This document shows, piece after piece, positions 4,881-44,260 of a stretch of DNA of 44,355 nt. This DNA comes from Escherichia coli (GTDB lineage: Bacteria > Pseudomonadota > Gammaproteobacteria > Enterobacterales > Enterobacteriaceae): the NCBI RefSeq assembly GCF_044324785.1, contig NZ_CP172130.1. One strand, 5' to 3'. The position numbers and the translations under genes were made by a program. Each line of letters opens with the position of its first letter. Position 1 is the first letter of the stretch. The notes beneath the pieces are model-generated. The model did not search any database, was not told the DNA's origin, and worked only from the letters and a program-made list of their open reading frames with translations.

Positions 4881-5067
4881 TGAGTAGGGAAGCTGTTATC
4901 CTGAATTACTTTGGATATGGGCATATATGCTGGAATAGGGCATTAGATAAAGTAATTGAGCATGTGAATGTTGTAACTAATTCAGGCTGAGCAGAAAATG
5001 CTGTATGTCCAGTCTGTACTGGAATTATACTGGCAACCATGATCATCACAGGAAGAACAAGTAATAG

Positions 5068-5592
5068 ATGGCGACTGAGTGGGTGGATGTGGCTGATAAT
5101 GCCGTTAAAATTGGGCTTGGCTCTGCGCTAACAATATTGGGCGGTTATTTGACGCTCAAATTATCACAGCAGCACGAGTTAAGGAAAGAAGCATTAATTC
5201 AGCGACGTAAAGATTTTGAGGTGAAAGCTGAGCGTTACGTGAATTTTTTATCCTGTTCAAGAATGATGTTACAGAAATATATGATGTCCTCATTAAGACA
5301 TGACTGTGAAGATTATATTGAATATACAAGGCTGCATGAAACGGTATCCCTTACATGCGCAAGTAATACTATGAGAAAGCTGGCCTTTGATGCTTACAAC
5401 GCCGTATCTGATGCCTGCACAATGGGAACAGCAAATCGCGATGAAAAAAAACCAGTCAGGGAAAAAGCTAAAGTGGCTTTAGATAAGTTTCAGGGATTTG
5501 CCAGTGAAGAACTACGTCATGAGAAAGCTGCAATTGAGGTAATGAACAAAAAGCGGGCATTTTGGTCCTTTGGGCGACAAACTGCGCGATGA
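5068..5592 (+). CDS. Hypothetical protein with one N-terminal transmembrane helix (174 aa)
   Basis: Hydrophobic segment VKIGLGSALTILGGYLTL followed by a charged, probably coiled-coil region; AT-rich. Confidence 0.5.
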   Translation: MATEWVDVADNAVKIGLGSALTILGGYLTLKLSQQHELRKEALIQRRKDFEVKAERYVNFLSCSRMMLQKYMMSSLRHDCEDYIEYTRLHETVSLTCASNTMRKLAFDAYNAVSDACTMGTANRDEKKPVREKAKVALDKFQGFASEELRHEKAAIEVMNKKRAFWSFGRQTAR

Positions 5593-5841: not shown

Positions 5842-6663
5842 ATGTTGGGTACTTCGTTTCAACAGTTTTCGATAGAGGCGCTTCTTGCTAGTGCTTCACT
5901 ACGCAGTGGACTGACAGCATTGAATAAGTGTAAATATCATGATAAAGGCAGCTTTTATAATGCTTTTTTTCAACTGTCAATTGGTCTGGAACGTTTTTTT
6001 AAAATTATTTATGTTGTTCAGTATATGATTGAAAATGATTTGAATAAACCAACATATATCCATTTGAGGAAATTAGGTCATGATATAAGCATTTTACATC
6101 AAAATGCAGTAAATATTGCAATCAAATACGAGAAAAGAGACAAAGGCAAATGGGTCTTGAATGATGAGCAATCTGCAATATTGACAATGCTATCGGAATT
6201 TGGGAAAGAAACTCGGTATTATAACTTAAATACTATTATTGGAGATAAAAAACTAATGAATGACCCTCTTGAGCAATGGAATTATATTTTGGAGTATTGC
6301 TACTGGAAGTATACTTCAACAACTAAAAGAGAGAGATTGAGTCAAGAAGTAATCTCATGGGCTGAGAGAAATCGATTGTATGGTTTTACTAATGAATTTG
6401 GCCTCGATGGTCATATTATGACGTATGTAGATCAGTATCTATTGAACTGGAAAGTAAACAAAATTTCGCCTTGCATTGCATGGGAAATAATTAGCATGTT
6501 GCAACCGTATTACTTTTTGCTAATGAGATTACGAGATACTGTGCAGTTGATGGAACAAGATAAAGGAATTAAAGACCCTTTAGTACCATACTTTCATGAA
6601 ATTTTCCCATATTTCCTTTTAGATCGTGCAACAGCGAAAAGACGTAGGAATTGGCTTGATTAG
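5842..6663 (+). CDS. Hypothetical protein (273 aa), no recognised domain
   Basis: Long ORF with AGGAG RBS (aaggagtttttATG); AT-rich; co-directional with the upstream 174-aa ORF. Confidence 0.55.
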   Translation: MLGTSFQQFSIEALLASASLRSGLTALNKCKYHDKGSFYNAFFQLSIGLERFFKIIYVVQYMIENDLNKPTYIHLRKLGHDISILHQNAVNIAIKYEKRDKGKWVLNDEQSAILTMLSEFGKETRYYNLNTIIGDKKLMNDPLEQWNYILEYCYWKYTSTTKRERLSQEVISWAERNRLYGFTNEFGLDGHIMTYVDQYLLNWKVNKISPCIAWEIISMLQPYYFLLMRLRDTVQLMEQDKGIKDPLVPYFHEIFPYFLLDRATAKRRRNWLD

Positions 6664-6742: not shown

Positions 6743-6922
6743 TTACGCGACCTCAGCCTTTTGCGGTTTTGGCTTGGTGATATACCACGATAGACAACCG
6801 ACAATAAAACTCATGAACATTCCAGTAAAACGATCATCGATGCCTGGAAACAGGCAACCGACAAACATCGCAACAGGGAAAGGAAGAAGTAAACAGCGCC
6901 CCAAAATGCTCATAAAATCCAT
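6743..6922 (-). CDS. Small hydrophobic protein (59 aa, two predicted transmembrane helices)
   Basis: GGAGG RBS then ATG (MDFMSIL...); immediately downstream of the 31-aa peptide gene and a GC-rich hairpin (6943..6968). Confidence 0.3.
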   Translation of the reverse strand: MDFMSILGRCLLLPFPVAMFVGCLFPGIDDRFTGMFMSFIVGCLSWYITKPKPQKAEVA

Positions 6923-6988
6923 AAATCCTCCTTTGTTAAAGGGCAGGAAGCGGTGCACTTCCTGCCCTTAGTTACGTTTCCGCAGTCA

Positions 6989-7084
6989 TCAATCGATGAA
7001 CTGACGGATCAGTTCCAGAACTGCAATCAGCGCGTTTGCAACGGCGACCACAGCCCTGAGAACGATGATTAACAGGTTAATCAT
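6989..7084 (-). CDS. Candidate type I toxin: 31-aa hydrophobic peptide MINLLIIVLRAVVAVANALIAVLELIRQFID (DinQ/TisB-like)
   Basis: ATG with GGAG 6 nt upstream; the SD lies in a CUCCAG/CUGGAG hairpin; single transmembrane helix; absent from the ORF track because it is under 60 aa. Confidence 0.4.
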   Translation of the reverse strand: MINLLIIVLRAVVAVANALIAVLELIRQFID

Positions 7085-7344
7085 CCGTTTCTCCAGGTTG
7101 ATACTGGAGGAAGTCGCCGTTGCTTGCTCATACATCGCCTGTCACAACGGCTCTCTCACATTGTTGGATGTAGAGTACCTTCCCCCTGCCAGAGCACTGA
7201 ACACAGCACCACCTGTTTGTTCAGCCAGGACTTTAATTCGTTCATACCCAGATAGCGCAGGGTTTAGAAGCAAGGGAGGCACACTGTACAGCGCCAACAC
7301 AAAGATTATACGGGGTCTGACGCTCAGTGGAACGAAAACTCACG

Positions 7345-25779: not shown

Positions 25780-27617
25780 AGCAAAACCTCAGACTCCAGC
25801 TCCCCTACGGAGAGCATTTTTTCTTTTGACGGATATTTAAGCCCTTTCACACCAAATATTTTTTTCGTCTTATTTAGTTCCATCGTCAATGATGCCAGTT
25901 TAGGACTGACCTTCATTAACCTGTCCATAAAATACGGATCAAGGTAATAAAGTGCCTTTTCTGCTTTAACAGGGTTCTCCCCCTTCAGGATGATAAATTC
26001 TTCTTTAAAGTCCAGCGTTCCCAGCTCCTGTGGAAGCACCAGTGCTCTTCGGGCTTCACTTTCTGATTCGCCCTGTGAAGCTGATCGTCCCCGGCTCTTG
26101 CTTGTGCTCTTTGATGTGGTTGTAATATACCCAAGTTTTTCTGATATCTTCGCGGCATCATCCTCTTCGCTGACAGCATAGATAATACGGCATGGATGAG
26201 CACTCATCAGCGTTTTGGCTCCCTCAATACCATAGATTTCATTTAGCTGACTGATATTCTGATAAATCGTCAGCAGTTTAAGTTTAAAACCTGCAATATA
26301 CCCTGACCCCTTTTTAATAATTGGCATATAACCAATCGAAGGGAACTCATCAAGAAACATCAGGCAGTCATGTTTCAGGGTGGGATCAAAATCAGGATTT
26401 TCACGCAATGTCACTTCAACAACGAAGTTGAAAAACAGGTTCAGAAAATCGTAAGCCAGAGATATATCTTCCGCATTAACACCGACATAAACAGTGATAT
26501 CTTCCCGTCGCAACTGACGGAGATCGAAATCATTACCATCAGTACATTTACGAACGGTTGGGAGATAAAACAGGCTCATTTTCTTACGGAAAGAACCATC
26601 AATGCTTGAACGCTGTTCATCTTCCGTTTCGTGATATTCCCTGATTTTGGTCAGGGCATCGCGCAAATGATACAACGCGTTTTCATCAAGTCCGTTTGTT
26701 CCCTCCAGTTCTTCCCGCTTACTGAGTATCAGTTCCCTGTCAATATTGCTGTACAGGTCGACGACAGAACCGATTGAGAAAACGGGTTTAAGCCCGAACT
26801 CATTAAGCCAGGACGGCTCATAGTTAATAAAGAAATGAAGCAACTTAGCCAGTCCTGTCCAGTACTGACCAGCAAGGTTATTAAAGTGCGCTTCTGCCCC
26901 TGTCATGCCGTAAGACGGAAACAGAATTTCAATCAGTTTAAGCAGATCCTTAGCACCACTCTCTGCTTTTAAATCAATATAGAAAAGGGGGTTAAACTGA
27001 TGTGTCTTACTGTTGAATGGGTCGAGAAGATAAACTTTATTACCCAGCAGTATTTCACGCACCTTACTGGTGATTTTCCACAATTCCTGTTTTGGATCTA
27101 ACGCAATCAGAGAGTGTTTTCTGACCAGAAGATTAGGGATACCAATGGCGGCACCTTTACCGGCGCGGGTTCCTGCACCAAGAGATACAAAATCCGGGGC
27201 GGTATACCACAGATATTTTCCTTTATACGCGCCGACCAGAATATCCGTATCATTTTCTGTCTCCCACTTAAGCAGTTTTGATTTTTTTAAATCATTGTCA
27301 CTGGCAAACTTCGCATCACCATAAAGAGCAACATCCATTTTATTCAGTTGCCAGATAACAAAAACAGGCACAATGAGAGACGAAACCATACCTGACAAAA
27401 GAGAAGGTATGGCAGTCAGTCTGATATCTGTACGTATATTACTCTCTGTTATTATTTTCCAGAGCAACATGGAATCAAAATTTTTCCATATATACAGTGG
27501 TGTTTTTCCGTTCAGGAAATAAACAGAAACAGAACCAGCATAATAGGTCACGAGACACATAACCAGACCGATAAAAACCCACTGGCCTTTATCGGGGAGT
27601 TTTAAAGACATAATCAC
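25776..27617 (-). CDS. taxB: Type IV coupling protein (VirD4/TraG family)
   Basis: 613 aa; N-terminal transmembrane helices; Walker A GAGTRAGKG; position directly after virB11. Confidence 0.85.
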   Translation of the reverse strand: MIMSLKLPDKGQWVFIGLVMCLVTYYAGSVSVYFLNGKTPLYIWKNFDSMLLWKIITESNIRTDIRLTAIPSLLSGMVSSLIVPVFVIWQLNKMDVALYGDAKFASDNDLKKSKLLKWETENDTDILVGAYKGKYLWYTAPDFVSLGAGTRAGKGAAIGIPNLLVRKHSLIALDPKQELWKITSKVREILLGNKVYLLDPFNSKTHQFNPLFYIDLKAESGAKDLLKLIEILFPSYGMTGAEAHFNNLAGQYWTGLAKLLHFFINYEPSWLNEFGLKPVFSIGSVVDLYSNIDRELILSKREELEGTNGLDENALYHLRDALTKIREYHETEDEQRSSIDGSFRKKMSLFYLPTVRKCTDGNDFDLRQLRREDITVYVGVNAEDISLAYDFLNLFFNFVVEVTLRENPDFDPTLKHDCLMFLDEFPSIGYMPIIKKGSGYIAGFKLKLLTIYQNISQLNEIYGIEGAKTLMSAHPCRIIYAVSEEDDAAKISEKLGYITTTSKSTSKSRGRSASQGESESEARRALVLPQELGTLDFKEEFIILKGENPVKAEKALYYLDPYFMDRLMKVSPKLASLTMELNKTKKIFGVKGLKYPSKEKMLSVGELESEVLL

Positions 27618-42771: not shown

Positions 42772-43053
42772 TTAGCGCAAATCTGCGATCTGATAGACTT
42801 CGCTGCTTTCCCTTCTTCCAACGGCAATAACGAGTAAAACGACTTTCTCATCAATGACTTGGTATACAAGTCTGTAGCCAGATGCACGAAGTTTGATTTT
42901 ATAGCGATCAGCATGACCATGTAACCGGGCTGCGGGTACGCGTGGATTTTCCAGCCGTTCTGCCAGTTTCTTTTTGAATTGTTCACGGATGGTGTGGCCG
43001 AGTTTCTGCCATTCCTTCAGTGCTCTACGGTCAAAAGCCAGTTCATAGGTCAT
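42772..43053 (-). CDS. stbE: RelE/ParE-family toxin of a type II toxin-antitoxin pair
   Basis: 93 aa; RelE-like sequence (…YKIKLRASGYRLVYQVIDEKVVLLVIAVGRRE…); 11-nt overlap with the upstream antitoxin gene. Confidence 0.8.
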   Translation of the reverse strand: MTYELAFDRRALKEWQKLGHTIREQFKKKLAERLENPRVPAARLHGHADRYKIKLRASGYRLVYQVIDEKVVLLVIAVGRRESSEVYQIADLR

Positions 43054-43294
43054 CCAGGTTAACCTTCACAATTTCCGGGTTTTTCATGCGCTCATCAGCA
43101 ACAGCGTTTAACTCAGCATCTTCAGCGAGTTCCCGATAGTAGGCGTAAAGTTTTGGTGGAACGCAATAGAACGCCGGTTCGTTTCGGTTCAGGATCGCAA
43201 CAGCGTCCCCTTCACCTTCAGCTACGGTTCCCATAGGATTTTTTTTCAGGTCAGTAATACTGGCCGCTGTGGTTGTCAGAATTTGATAGCTCAT
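43043..43294 (-). CDS. stbD: RelB/Phd/YefM-type antitoxin
   Basis: 83-aa acidic protein immediately upstream of and overlapping the RelE-like gene. Confidence 0.75.
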   Translation of the reverse strand: MSYQILTTTAASITDLKKNPMGTVAEGEGDAVAILNRNEPAFYCVPPKLYAYYRELAEDAELNAVADERMKNPEIVKVNLDDL

Positions 43295-43767
43295 AAGCCC
43301 TCCGCTTGTCTCATTGGCATAATAGCATCTTTAAAAGCACTCTTAAAAGTGCTTATGTTGAGAAAAACATCAGAACAGGTGAGATATGGCTCTTTCCGAC
43401 ATCGCCTTAAAACGCTCTGTAACGCGTTCTGAGCGTTTTTTCCCGTTTCGTTGTAGTCAGCTACGGTTTAACGGTTTTTAACGCCGCTCAACGCTTTTTA
43501 GCGGCCTTGTTGCTGTGATCTGTTGCCATGATCCGGATAGGAGTTCAATCTTGATCAAAATTTCCTCAAGGCAACGACTGTTTTGTAAATACCCTCTAAA
43601 ACGCGCTGTATCGCATTCTGAGCGATTTTTTCGATTTCGCATGTTTTCACCATGGTTGTATCGAACGAAGCGGCAGAAAGCGATTCAGGGCTTCTCAGTG
43701 AAAGATCCAAAAAGGATCAATCAACGGATCGTATGAGCTGAACTCTTCTGGTTTTGAGAAAGGAGAC

Positions 43768-43825
43768 ACCGCTCGCCGCAGCCGAACGACCGAGCGTAGC
43801 GAGTTAGTGAGCGAGGAAGCGGAAT
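43768..43825 (+). other. Segment resembling the ColE1/pMB1 region CCGCTCGCCGCAGCCGAACGACCGAGCGCAGCGAGTCAGTGAGCGAGGAAGCGGAAG (possible single-strand initiation / primosome assembly site)
   Basis: Recognised from memory of pBR322/pUC sequence, with a few mismatches. Confidence 0.4.
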
Positions 43826-43936
43826 AGCACAGGGATTACATTAGGCACTTACGCACAGTGGTTAAAAAATGAGCATATTGTTTTTATGTGTGGTTGTCTT
43901 GGTTCAGAGTGATCTGTCCTCCGGGTTTACGCAAAG

Positions 43937-43945
43937 TTATCCACA
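43937..43945 (+). promoter_or_regulatory. Consensus DnaA box TTATCCACA flanking the iteron origin
   Basis: Perfect 9-mer; a second near-match CATCCACAG lies at 44178..44186 directly after the last iteron. Confidence 0.5.
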
Positions 43946-44045: not shown

Positions 44046-44177
44046 AACATGAGAGGATTTTTAACGTAAGGTGAGAGGATCTTTAACATAAGGTGAGAAG
44101 ATTTTTAAGTAAGGGTGAGAAGATTTTTCACTAAAGATGAGAGGATTTTTAACGAAAGGTGAGAGGATTTTTAAGTA
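44046..44177 (+). repeat. Six tandem 22-bp iterons of a gamma-type (pi-dependent) replication origin
   Basis: AACATGAGAGGATTTTTAACGT / AAGGTGAGAGGATCTTTAACAT / AAGGTGAGAAGATTTTTAAGTA / AGGGTGAGAAGATTTTTCACTA / AAGATGAGAGGATTTTTAACGA / AAGGTGAGAGGATTTTTAAGTA; AT-rich flanks. Confidence 0.85.
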
Positions 44178-44260
44178 CATCCACAGGCTAAAAAAATATC
44201 ATGTAAAACATGATGTTATGAATTCATTTTGATGTGAATACATAAAGATCTTTATATCTA

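What the first reader, a model, noticed from the sequence alone, without database searches (positions are those of the whole stretch)
43404..43640. Two ~45-bp direct repeats with internal hairpins between stbD and the origin
TAAAACGCTCTGTAACGCGTTCTGAGCGTTTTTTCCCGTTTCG (43404..43446) and CTAAAACGCGCTGTATCGCATTCTGAGCGATTTTTTCGATTTCG (43596..43639) each contain AAAACGC..GAGCGTTTT-type inverted repeats. They may be StbD operator sites, single-strand initiation sites or origin-associated protein-binding sites.
Basis: seen in the sequence. Interest (0 to 1): 0.35.

Follow-up and report, generated by a model that had tools for sequence, protein, structure and literature searches.

The report
Widespread origin-flank DNA motif, two copies
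The two repeats are real, and they are copies of a roughly 34-base non-coding motif that also occurs in many enterobacterial plasmids and in T5-like phages, often beside replication-origin-like DNA; it is most likely a docking site for an unidentified DNA-binding protein, not a StbD operator or a conserved hairpin.

Summary
The repeat pair is real. They share 36 of 43 bases, with no other copy in the plasmid and none expected by chance. Only R1 folds into a significant DNA hairpin.

The repeats are not tied to stbDE or to the iteron type. They persist next to other toxin-antitoxin genes or none, and next to four unrelated iteron families. IncX4 has one copy, some plasmids have an R1/R2 hybrid, and R6K keeps only a vestige.

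Both copies belong to a much wider motif, c-TAAAACGC-n-CTGTA-wsssr-TTCTrAG-ssn-TTTT. I found it in:
- at least 1601 plasmid records
- 728 phage records, mostly terminal repeats of T5-like phages; phage T5's annotated "inverted repeat B/B'" is a short form
- prophage islands

Conserved blocks recur every 10 bp. No candidate helix shows covariation on either strand, and no reading frame is conserved. DnaA boxes, GATC sites and iteron-like repeats are enriched on one side.

My best reading (confidence about 0.4) is a sequence-specific protein-binding accessory site bordering origin-type DNA, with an unknown binder. Rival readings are a weak terminator or insulator, a single-strand priming signal, and a functionless or mobile relic. 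I found no paper containing the sequence.

The parts
43408..43450 (+). Repeat copy R1, TAAAACGCTCTGTAACGCGTTCTGAGCGTTTTTTCCCGTTTCG. The family core (position-weight-matrix span) is 43404-43441.
   Evidence: family D3; self-BLAST; pattern, 0 expected by chance; matrix score 54.8 of a maximum 60.
43409..43439 (.). Near-perfect palindrome within R1. The arms AAAACGCTC (43409-43417) and GAGCGTTTT (43431-43439) surround TGTAACGCGTTCT. This is the only significant DNA hairpin of the pair.
   Evidence: -8.5 kcal/mol, z = -2.4. (as RNA, z = -1.7 on the plus strand and -2.5 on the minus strand).
43451..43596 (.). 146-bp spacer between the copies. It is lost in the single-copy R1/R2 hybrid plasmids and is about half variable among two-copy relatives.
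   Evidence: hybrids L001, L007. (49% variable columns).
43597..43639 (+). Repeat copy R2, TAAAACGCGCTGTATCGCATTCTGAGCGATTTTTTCGATTTCG. The family core is 43593-43630. This is the canonical copy: it is the one kept in IncX4 and in L004, and it carries the family's upstream ATACCCTC flank.
   Evidence: matrix score 58.3; only 3 of 38 columns vary among 19 distinct loci.
43610..43632 (+). 5-bp stem ATCGC/GCGAT with the 7-nt loop ATTCTGA, followed by T6. This is a weak terminator-like site on the plus strand.
   Evidence: scan hit. (not more stable than shuffles). (the stem is AACGC/GCGTT in R1 and in L004).

Best explanation
R1 and R2 are two anciently duplicated copies of a discrete, sequence-conserved cis element of about 34 bp (43 bp in the IncX subfamily). 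The element works as double-stranded DNA, as a binding site for a sequence-specific protein. The binder is most probably a factor supplied by the gamma-proteobacterial host, because the carriers share no gene. The element marks the outer border of origin-type non-coding DNA. In this plasmid that is the block made of a GATC cluster, a ColE1-like primosome site, a DnaA box, an A+T-rich segment and the iterons, to the left of pir. Shown: the motif, its distribution, its 10-bp-phased conservation, its independence from stbDE and from iteron type, its stronger conservation than the flanks, and the lack of RNA, hairpin or coding signatures. Inferred: that a protein binds it, that the protein is host-encoded, and that the role is accessory (organising or insulating the origin region) and not essential. 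R6K replicates without the element.
For: (1) The same core occurs in 72 contexts that are less than 85% identical to each other. Positions my search pattern left free are still conserved (position 8 is C in 56 of 72, position 13 is T in 62 of 72, position 33 is T in 62 of 72), while the flanks are unconserved. (2) Conserved blocks begin at positions 0, 10, 20 and 30, one per helical turn. Variants in EspYZU15, in L168 and in T5-like phages (EscoHU1) read as 2-3 tandem units of the form CTnnAACGCn. (3) No covariation supports any of three candidate helices on either strand. No reading frame is open in more than 44 of 72 contexts. Rfam gives no hit. (4) The element is independent of neighbouring genes. 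It lies next to StbDE, a different RelE/ParE pair, nikA or nothing, and next to four unrelated iteron families. (5) On the motif's 3' side there are 0.55 DnaA boxes per kb, against 0.20 per kb on the 5' side and 0.17 background. GATC sites run at 5.75 against 3.07 per kb within 300 nt. A 12-mer repeated at least 3 times occurs in 10 contexts on the 3' side against 3 on the 5' side. Examples are L036 and L121, L168, L191, and the Vibrio phage Ceto. (6) Among 19 distinct two-copy IncX loci, 8% of R2 core columns and 26% of R1 core columns vary, against 49-85% in the spacer and flanks. (7) In phage T5 and its relatives the motif sits about 30 nt from a perfect LexA-type box and next to paired DnaA boxes, so it lies among recognised host-factor sites (Davison, bioRxiv 10.1101/866236).
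Against: No binding protein is identified, and I could not match the motif to any operator consensus I know. That comparison was made from memory and is not a test. Most E. coli genomes have no close copy (1192 of 5426 have one, on plasmids or prophage-like islands), so no native chromosomal target of a host factor is evident. Only 22 of 78 contexts have a DnaA box within 600 nt, so the link to origins is partial. Orientation relative to an R6K-like origin is flipped in L191 compared with IncX, and orientation relative to flanking genes is mixed. The consensus is an imperfect palindrome: arm positions pair in 65-75% of cells. A hairpin or cruciform therefore cannot be excluded on composition alone. 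The contexts were retrieved with sequence patterns, which inflates apparent conservation at the fixed positions and biases towards conserved cores.
Confidence: 0.4

Rival explanations
1. Transcription insulator. The copies act as weak intrinsic terminators (bidirectional in the R1-type form) that keep transcription out of the origin block.
For: R2 is flagged as terminator-like: a 5-bp stem, a 7-nt loop and T6. The stem changes from ATCGC/GCGAT to AACGC/GCGTT in R1 and L004, and G-T wobbles appear in L003 and L011. R1, L011 and L191 have a 9-bp stem flanked by an A-run and a T-run. The element sits at the edge of the origin block.
Against: The hairpins are weak: R2 is no better than shuffles and the loops are 7-13 nt. 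Family-wide the stems are not maintained and do not covary. In L191 and in EscoHU1 a canonical strong terminator already lies next to the motif. The flanking stbDE genes are transcribed away from R1. The conserved loop and 5' sequence are left unexplained.
Confidence: 0.15
2. Single-strand function. The element is a priming or initiation signal (ssi), or another hairpin recognised in single-stranded DNA during replication or conjugative entry.
For: R1 forms a significant single-stranded DNA hairpin. A ColE1-type primosome-site homologue lies 110 bp downstream on the same strand. Copies sometimes bracket origin-like DNA in inverted orientation, as in phage Ceto and in L168. That is the arrangement I recall for paired initiation signals (from memory).
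Against: R2, which is the more conserved copy, has no significant DNA hairpin. No helix is conserved family-wide. R6K, from which such signals were isolated experimentally (Nomura et al. 1991, cited in PMC6854812), retains only a vestige. Abundant IncF-type plasmids are not among the hits.
Confidence: 0.1
3. A relic or selfish mini-element. The motif is spread by recombination or mobilisation among co-resident plasmids and phages, in the manner of REP elements, and has no function for the IncX plasmid.
For: The borders are sharp against unrelated flanks. Homology between IncX1 and IncX4 begins at R2, and a chimeric fragment occurs in pSCU-106-2. R1-by-R2 deletions occurred at two or more different crossover points. 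Copy number and orientation are variable. R6K lost the element.
Against: The cores are much more conserved than their flanks within IncX. The motif is retained across very distant carriers, including strictly lytic phages. It has no terminal inverted repeats and no target duplication, and I saw no associated transposase. The non-random enrichment for DnaA boxes and GATC sites argues for selection.
Confidence: 0.12
4. Operator sites for the StbD/StbE antitoxin-toxin complex.
For: R1 lies 114 bp upstream of the stbD start codon. In pSCU-106-2 a fragment lies about 100 bp upstream of another RelE/ParE operon.
Against: The element is present without stbDE in IncX4, L004, Arsenophonus plasmids and T5-like phages. 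It is also present with a non-homologous toxin-antitoxin pair. The stbDE promoter-like site overlaps its own palindrome at 43335-43354, 50-70 bp away from R1. R2 is more than 300 bp from stbD.
Confidence: 0.02
5. Accessory binding sites for the plasmid's own initiator, the pi (Pir) protein.
For: The element is close to the iterons. The right part of R2 (TGAGCGATTTTTTCGA) loosely resembles this plasmid's iteron (TGAGAGGATTTTTAACG).
Against: The repeat sequence is essentially unchanged in plasmids whose iterons are unrelated: CATGATGGTTTAGGTCACTATC, AAACATGAGAGCTTCCTCGGTT and GAAAGGTGGATGGCTATGCCGT. It also occurs in phages that have no pir gene.
Confidence: 0.02

Closest known systems
Phage T5 'inverted repeat B / B'' and the neighbouring unnamed repeat in the left-terminal-repeat non-coding regions (annotation of AY587007; Davison, bioRxiv 10.1101/866236)
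   Same: The sequence is the same. T5 position 9264-9301 (minus strand) reads CCTAAAACGTCCTAGATCGCATTCTAACGCGTTT. The annotated repeats B (5285-5310) and B' (6184-6209) are two-unit versions, CCTAAAACGCTTTCTAACG. They are non-coding, conserved across T5-like phages, lie next to DnaA boxes, and have no known function.
   Different: In T5 the copies are inverted, sit beside a LexA-type box, and lie in the first-step-transfer DNA and not next to a plasmid origin. The T5 literature does not link them to plasmids. The IncX copies are direct repeats, and each carries a 9-nt IncX-specific 3' extension.
Host-factor accessory sites at iteron origins (the DnaA boxes, IHF sites and 'enhancer' segment of the R6K gamma origin)
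   Same: It is a discrete conserved site outside the iterons, in the non-coding DNA that flanks an R6K-type origin. It does not depend on the initiator's specificity and is dispensable in at least one family member.
   Different: The sequence matches neither the DnaA box (TTATCCACA) nor the IHF consensus (WATCAANNNNTTR); I compared it by eye with consensus sequences recalled from memory. It is longer (about 34 bp). Its distance to the origin (100-900 bp or more) and its orientation vary. The binder is unknown.
REP/BIME-type extragenic palindromic repeats
   Same: It is a short (about 35 bp) imperfect palindrome. It is strictly intergenic, occurs singly or in direct or inverted pairs, and has sharp borders against unrelated flanks.
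   Different: It is found on plasmids, phages and prophages and not dispersed in host chromosomes. There are 1-4 copies per genome. No associated transposase was seen. Stem covariation is absent.
Plasmid iterons and other tandem 10-11-bp direct-repeat protein-binding arrays
   Same: There are two to three units with 10-bp periodicity (CTAAAACGCn, CTGTAACGCn, TTCTAACGCn).
   Different: It does not co-vary with the replicon's initiator and is shared by replicons with unrelated initiators. The units are far more divergent from one another than true iterons are.

Membership tests
Antitoxin (StbD/RelB-type) operator | Overlaps or abuts the toxin-antitoxin operon promoter | tested here: not met
   The promoter-like site is at 43346->43319 and overlaps a separate palindrome at 43335-43354. 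R1 starts 54 bp beyond that palindrome, and R2 lies more than 240 bp beyond it.
Antitoxin (StbD/RelB-type) operator | Co-occurs with the cognate toxin-antitoxin genes | tested here: not met
   The element is present without stbDE in IncX4, L004, Arsenophonus plasmids and T5-like phages, and with a different toxin-antitoxin pair in L003.
Iteron or initiator (pi) binding site | Sequence co-varies with the initiator and iteron type | tested here: not met
   The repeat is unchanged next to four unrelated iteron families.
Intrinsic (rho-independent) terminator | Stable G+C-rich hairpin immediately followed by a T-run | tested here: inconclusive
   R2 meets the loose scan criteria but is no more stable than shuffles. 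R1 has a 9-bp stem whose T-run is part of the stem.
Intrinsic (rho-independent) terminator | Stem maintained by compensatory change across relatives | tested here: not met
   Within IncX there is one T-A to A-T swap and there are two wobbles. Across 72 contexts, pairing is no better than in shuffles on either strand.
Single-strand initiation signal (G4-type, or phiX174-type primosome assembly site) | Strand-specific, stable secondary structure in single-stranded DNA | tested here: inconclusive
   Only R1 folds significantly as DNA. No conserved helix is seen.
Single-strand initiation signal (G4-type, or phiX174-type primosome assembly site) | Supports primase- or PriA-dependent priming on single-stranded templates | not testable with these tools
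   This needs an M13-based plaque or replicative-form conversion assay.
Origin of transfer (IncX oriT alpha/beta) | Lies in the long inverted repeats next to taxC and next to ddp3 | tested here: not met
   The literature places the two oriTs near taxC and near ddp3/repX (PMC3402527; PMC3332091). No inverted partner of the repeat exists in the window.
T5 inverted repeat B/B' motif family | Shares the core CTAAAACGC...TTCTRA(G/C) | tested here: met
   T5 positions 5285-5310, 6184-6209 and 9264-9301 compared with R1/R2. There are 728 phage records with matches.
Known RNA families (Rfam 15) | Match at or near a family's gathering score | tested here: not met
   The best hit is tracrRNA at 21.7 bits against a gathering score of 70, E = 1.4. 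No relevant hit was found in five other loci that carry the motif.
Protein-coding sequence | A reading frame kept open across family members | tested here: not met
   The best frame is open in 44 of 72 contexts over 64 nt and in 32 of 72 over 90 nt. The other five frames are open in 0-30 of 72 over 64 nt.

The most novel reading that the evidence does not exclude
The motif is the recognition site of a so far unrecognised, conserved gamma-proteobacterial DNA-binding factor, or of a known factor in an undescribed binding mode. Very different mobile elements recruit this factor next to DnaA-box or iteron DNA: IncX and other plasmids at their vegetative origins, prophage-like elements at iteron-rich regions, and T5-like phages in the first-step-transfer region where DNA injection pauses. 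If so, one host function would connect plasmid origin control with the long-unexplained T5 injection-stop region.
Probability: 0.25. Interest if true: 0.8.

Novelty: new variant of a known kind. Interest (0 to 1): 0.55.

Why it matters
IncX plasmids are major carriers of resistance genes, and the non-coding DNA beside their origin is largely uncharacterised because the model plasmid R6K has lost this element. The same 34-nt motif also occurs in the terminal-repeat control and injection-stop regions of T5-like phages, on unrelated small and large plasmids, and in prophage islands. That gives a concrete, testable handle, a defined oligonucleotide, for finding a factor these elements may share. 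It also re-labels a T5 repeat of unknown function (inverted repeat B/B') as part of a pan-element family. If the site proves to be an insulator or organiser of origins, it would be useful for vector design and for understanding how replicon modules are exchanged: homology between IncX1 and IncX4 begins at this element.

Tried and rejected
- **StbD operator and pi-binding site.** Rejected on distribution.
- **oriT.** Rejected. The literature places both IncX oriTs elsewhere, and the window has no inverted partner.
- **ori alpha.** Rejected. It lies several kb away, near ddp1/ddp2.
- **Known RNA.** Rfam gave nothing.
- **Conserved hairpin or RNA structure.** I tested three helices, on both strands, with shuffled and slid controls. 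There is no covariation.
- **Covariation between tandem units at 9-12-bp offsets.** None found.
- **Small protein or peptide.** No frame is kept open.
- **Comparisons by eye with consensus sequences recalled from memory.** I compared the motif with sigma-70, sigma-54, sigma-E and sigma-28 promoters. I also compared it with Tus-Ter, IHF, Fis, CRP and CRP-S, and with boxA (NusB/E). Further comparisons were with LexA, PhoB, OmpR, CpxR, ArcA, PmrA and TorR, with DeoR, GalR/LacI-type, PurR and NagC, with KorB, and with hix/gix and dif/cer sites. None fits the invariant positions. These are leads checked by eye, not database tests.
- **Lambda origin iteron.** Its 11-mer CCCCTAAAACG (recalled from memory) matches some family members, but the rest of the iteron palindrome is absent.
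- **Anticodon-arm resemblance.** The R2 hairpin loop AUUCUGA/AUUCUAA resembles a tRNA-Arg(UCU) anticodon arm, but the stem is not kept outside IncX.
- **Literature.** A full-text search for six 13-14-mers from the motif found no paper. Searches for R6K single-strand initiation signals, silencer/activator RNAs and primosome sites gave nothing that maps to this region. The R6K review PMC3691012 is not held.
- **Perfect 1-kb inverted repeat in Arsenophonus L010.** It contains the motif but tells us nothing about it.

Full report
**The observation.** The window is a complete IncX1-type plasmid.
- It starts at pir (1-855). 22-bp iterons lie at 44050-44199, a DnaA box at 43937-43945, and stbE/stbD on the minus strand at 42772-43294.
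- A 99.7%-identical relative, pIS15_43, is typed IncX1, MOBP, MPF_T.
- The repeat finder reports one 43-nt family: R1 at 43408-43450 and R2 at 43597-43639, 84% identical, starting 189 bp apart.
- Self-BLAST of the region against the whole plasmid finds no third copy (E = 3e-7 for the pair).
- A 33-nt consensus with up to three mismatches hits only these two sites, and none in 100 shuffles.

The "internal hairpin" claim is only half true.
- R1 is a near-perfect palindrome, AAAACGCTC...GAGCGTTTT, and folds as DNA at -8.5 kcal/mol (z = -2.4).
- R2 folds no better than shuffled sequence (z = +0.3).
- R2 has just a 5-bp stem, ATCGC/GCGAT, plus T6, which the consensus scan calls terminator-like.
- As RNA, the minus strand gives modest G-U-dependent hairpins in both copies.

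**What the repeats are not.**

StbD operators:
- The stbDE promoter-like site (43346->43319) overlaps its own 20-bp palindrome at 43335-43354. That palindrome is the natural operator candidate.
- The repeats occur independently of stbDE. L003 (CP044405) has both copies and the spacer next to a different RelE/ParE pair. L004 has one copy next to IncI-type nikA. IncX4 has one copy with unrelated DNA to its left.

Sites for the initiator:
- The repeat is essentially unchanged next to four unrelated iteron families.

oriT or ori alpha:
- Published IncX maps put the two oriTs, and the alpha and beta origins with them, in long inverted repeats near taxC and near ddp3/repX. The repeat lies in neither place.

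Other negatives:
- Rfam gives nothing.
- R6K, the model IncX plasmid, keeps only a vestige, TCTAAAACGCCTTCTAAGGCC, with the centre deleted. This probably explains why the element is absent from the R6K literature. It also shows the element is not essential for gamma-origin replication.

**History within IncX.**
- In PLSDB, 1466 records match the 321-bp region. Of these, 976 cover at least 80% of it, which is the two-copy form.
- IncX4 matches begin at window 43596, the base before R2.
- Several plasmids and contigs have a single hybrid copy, with R1 on the left and R2 on the right, and no spacer.
- The crossover points differ. L001 reads ...GTAACAGGTTCTGAGCGATTTTTTCGATTTCG, while L007 and L083 read ...GTAACGCGTTCTGAGCGATTTTTACCATTTCA. 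The 189-bp unit has therefore been deleted by R1-by-R2 recombination more than once.
- Among 19 distinct two-copy loci, 8% of columns vary in the R2 core and 26% in the R1 core. The figure is 49% in the spacer, 53% downstream, 71% in the ColE1-like segment and 85% upstream of R1.
- The loci were found by pattern matching, which biases this comparison towards conserved cores. The contrast is nevertheless large.

**The wider family.**
It also hit 34 viral contigs and 5 species-representative genomes.
- The hits are not noise. Across 72 contexts less than 85% identical to each other, positions the pattern left free are conserved (8 = C in 56 of 72, 13 = T in 62 of 72, 33 = T in 62 of 72, 0 = C in 47 of 72). 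The central 5-mer is mostly ACGCA, TCGCA, TGCGA or AGCCA. The flanks carry almost no information.
- Freeing positions 6, 22 and 24 in a second viral scan left them mostly C, C/T and A/G.
- The consensus is c-TAAAACGC-n-CTGTA-wsssr-TTCTrAG-ssn-TTTT.
- BLAST of a 43-mer consensus finds 1601 plasmid records. Most are IncX. Others are roughly 110-kb Klebsiella plasmids, Arsenophonus plasmids and small MOBQ plasmids.
- It finds 728 phage records. Most are T5-like Demerecviridae of Salmonella, Escherichia, Klebsiella and Vibrio. There are also Vequintavirinae, a Zobellviridae podovirus and jumbo phages.
- It matches 1192 of 5426 complete E. coli genomes. The two chromosomal hits I inspected lie in prophage-like islands.
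- In phage T5 itself the full motif is at 9264-9301 (minus strand), between the annotated palindromes C and D. The annotated "inverted repeat B" (5285-5310) and "B'" (6184-6209) are two-unit short forms, CCTAAAACGCTTTCTAACG.
- The T5 literature I could read treats these conserved non-coding repeats as unexplained.
- No paper in the library contains any of six 13-14-mers of the motif.

**Anatomy and tests of mechanism.**
- Conserved blocks start at positions 0, 10, 20 and 30. In some members the element is visibly two to three tandem 10-bp units: CTAAAACGCT, CTGTAACGCA, TTCTAACGCG.
- I tested three mutually exclusive helices: arm a with b, b with c, and a with c. Each was tested on both strands with G-U pairs allowed, against column shuffles and slid registers. 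None exceeds the controls in a meaningful way. The best is a:c on the minus strand, at 270 of 360 cells paired against a shuffle mean of 267.
- The pairing potential therefore comes from an imperfectly palindromic consensus, not from covariation.
- Direct-repeat covariation between units is also absent.
- No reading frame stays open in more than 44 of 72 contexts.
- The element is intergenic, with a median of about 200 nt or more to the nearest long open frame on each side.
- Orientation relative to neighbouring genes is mixed, with some excess of genes on the opposite strand.
- The side towards which the motif's 3' end points is richer in origin-type features:

| Feature | 3' side | 5' side | Background |
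|---|---|---|---|
| DnaA boxes per kb (within 1 kb) | 0.55 (36 boxes) | 0.20 (15 boxes) | 0.17 |
| GATC per kb (within 300 nt) | 5.75 | 3.07 | 3.43 |
| Contexts with a 12-mer repeated 3 or more times (of 52) | 10 | 3 | not measured |

  By my own rough binomial arithmetic, 36 against 15 is about p = 0.005, but boxes cluster within loci, so this is only indicative.
- Clear examples:
  - Plasmid contigs L036 and L121: motif, then a GATC-rich A+T-rich segment, a DnaA-like box and iterons.
  - The E. coli prophage-like island L168: a 3-kb iteron-rich non-coding region with a motif copy at one end and an inverted partial copy at the other.
  - Vibrio phage Ceto: two convergent copies around DnaA boxes.
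  - The 6.9-kb plasmid L191: an R6K-like origin (DnaA box, A+T-rich segment, 22-bp iterons, rep) with the motif about 275 bp from the DnaA box. The distance in this window is about 300 bp.
- In L191 the motif has the opposite orientation to IncX.
- Only 22 of 78 contexts have a DnaA box within 600 nt.
- In E. coli T5-like phages each motif copy lies about 30 nt from a perfect LexA-type box (CTGTATAAATATACAG) and next to paired DnaA or DnaA-like boxes. The motif therefore sits among recognised host-factor sites.

**Best explanation and rivals.**
- The pattern is a discrete motif with 10-bp phasing. It is conserved in sequence but not in pairing, does not depend on the neighbouring genes, and is retained in carriers that share no protein. 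It sits beside DnaA-box and iteron DNA, and orientation is not critical.
- This is what one expects of a double-stranded DNA binding site for a sequence-specific, probably host-encoded, protein with an accessory role at the border of origin-type regions.
- I give this about 0.4. Binding itself, the identity of the binder and the effect are all inferred, not shown.
- Rivals:
  - A weak or bidirectional terminator or insulator (0.15). It is supported by the R2 scan hit, the R1-type stems and an apparent compensatory swap within IncX. It is weakened by poor stability and by loss of the stem in most of the family.
  - A single-strand priming signal or other single-stranded DNA hairpin (0.10). This is untestable here and has no structural support.
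  - A functionless or mobile relic that merely marks recombination joints (0.12). This is weakened by the conservation contrast and by retention in lytic phages.
  - StbD operator or pi site (0.02 each).

**Comparison with known systems and novelty.**
- The only sequence-level relative with a name is T5 inverted repeat B/B', whose function is unknown. In the way it probably works, the element resembles host-factor accessory sites at iteron origins. In form it has traits of REP-type extragenic palindromes and of short iteron arrays.
- It fails the defining tests for each of these that I could run (see the membership table).
- I found no description of the motif as a family shared by plasmids and phages. 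This rests on a limited open-access library and on my own memory.
- I rate it a new variant of a known kind, namely an origin-associated cis-acting binding site. There is a 0.25 chance that it reveals a shared host factor linking plasmid origins and the T5 injection-stop region.

Noticed in passing
window 43752-43829: This segment is about 90-97% identical to a stretch found in thousands of small ColE1-type plasmids (ACCGCTCGCCGCAGCCGAACGACCGAGCGTAGCGAGTTAGTGAGCGAGGAAGCGGAA). From memory, this corresponds to the PriA-dependent primosome assembly (n') site just downstream of the ColE1/pBR322 origin. It is conserved in IncX1, IncX4, L001, L003 and L004 but absent from R6K.
   Followed up: partly
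window 43335-43354 (with promoter-like site 43346->43319, minus strand): The 20-bp palindrome AAGCACTCTTAAAAGTGCTT overlaps the predicted stbDE promoter. It is a better candidate for the StbD/StbE operator than the repeats.
   Followed up: partly
window 43704-43730: A cluster of GATC sites (AGATCCAAAAAGGATCAATCAACGGATCG) lies between R2 and the ColE1-like segment. There are three sites here and four in IncX4, L001 and L003, where the window's GAGC reads GATC. This suggests a Dam/SeqA-sensitive element in the origin flank.
   Followed up: no
L006 (R6K, LT827129) 2478-2501: R6K retains only TCTAAAACGCCTTCTAAGGCC in place of R2. It also lacks the GATC cluster and the ColE1-like segment. Homology resumes at GGGCTTCTCAGTG, which leads into the gamma-origin enhancer.
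   Followed up: partly
L192 (phage T5) 6137-6152 and 9332-9347; L166 (EscoHU1) 4951-4970 and 8353-8372: Perfect LexA-type boxes (CTGTATAAATATACAG; TACTGTATATTTATACAGTA in EscoHU1) sit in the first-step-transfer non-coding regions of T5-like phages, next to the motif and to paired DnaA boxes. In the T5 annotation the 9332 copy is labelled only 'palindrome D' and the 6137 copy lies within 'inverted repeat D'.
   Followed up: no
L168 (E. coli NIID080884 chromosome) 6768-9730: A roughly 3-kb stretch with no annotated gene lies inside a prophage-like element. It is packed with at least five different iteron-like repeat families and A+T-rich blocks, with motif-like sequences at both ends.
   Followed up: partly
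L170 (pSCU-106-2) 4994-5065: A chimeric fragment is present: the motif without its TAAAA start, plus about 35 bp of the IncX4-type downstream sequence, spliced about 100 bp upstream of an unrelated RelE/ParE-HTH operon. It is an example of recombination joints falling in or next to the motif.
   Followed up: partly
L190 (Col156-type plasmid) 1925-1955 and 1985-2025: About 180 bp upstream of the rep gene lies a diverged motif copy on the minus strand. About 50 nt away from it is a separate 11-bp-stem hairpin, CCATAAAAACG-ATTCTGACG-CGTTTTTATGG, whose loop begins with ATTCTGA, the loop of the R2 stem.
   Followed up: no
window 43386-43481, 43515-43736 (plus strand); 43478-43642, 43555-43710 (minus strand): Short ORFs of 31-73 aa run through the repeats, and one relative annotates a 55-aa hypothetical protein across the hybrid copy (L001 1507-1674). 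The frames are not conserved across the family, so these are probably spurious.
   Followed up: yes
window 26658-26683: A weak minus-strand similarity to R2 (83% over 29 nt, E = 1.1) appeared in the self-BLAST. It is probably chance.
   Followed up: no
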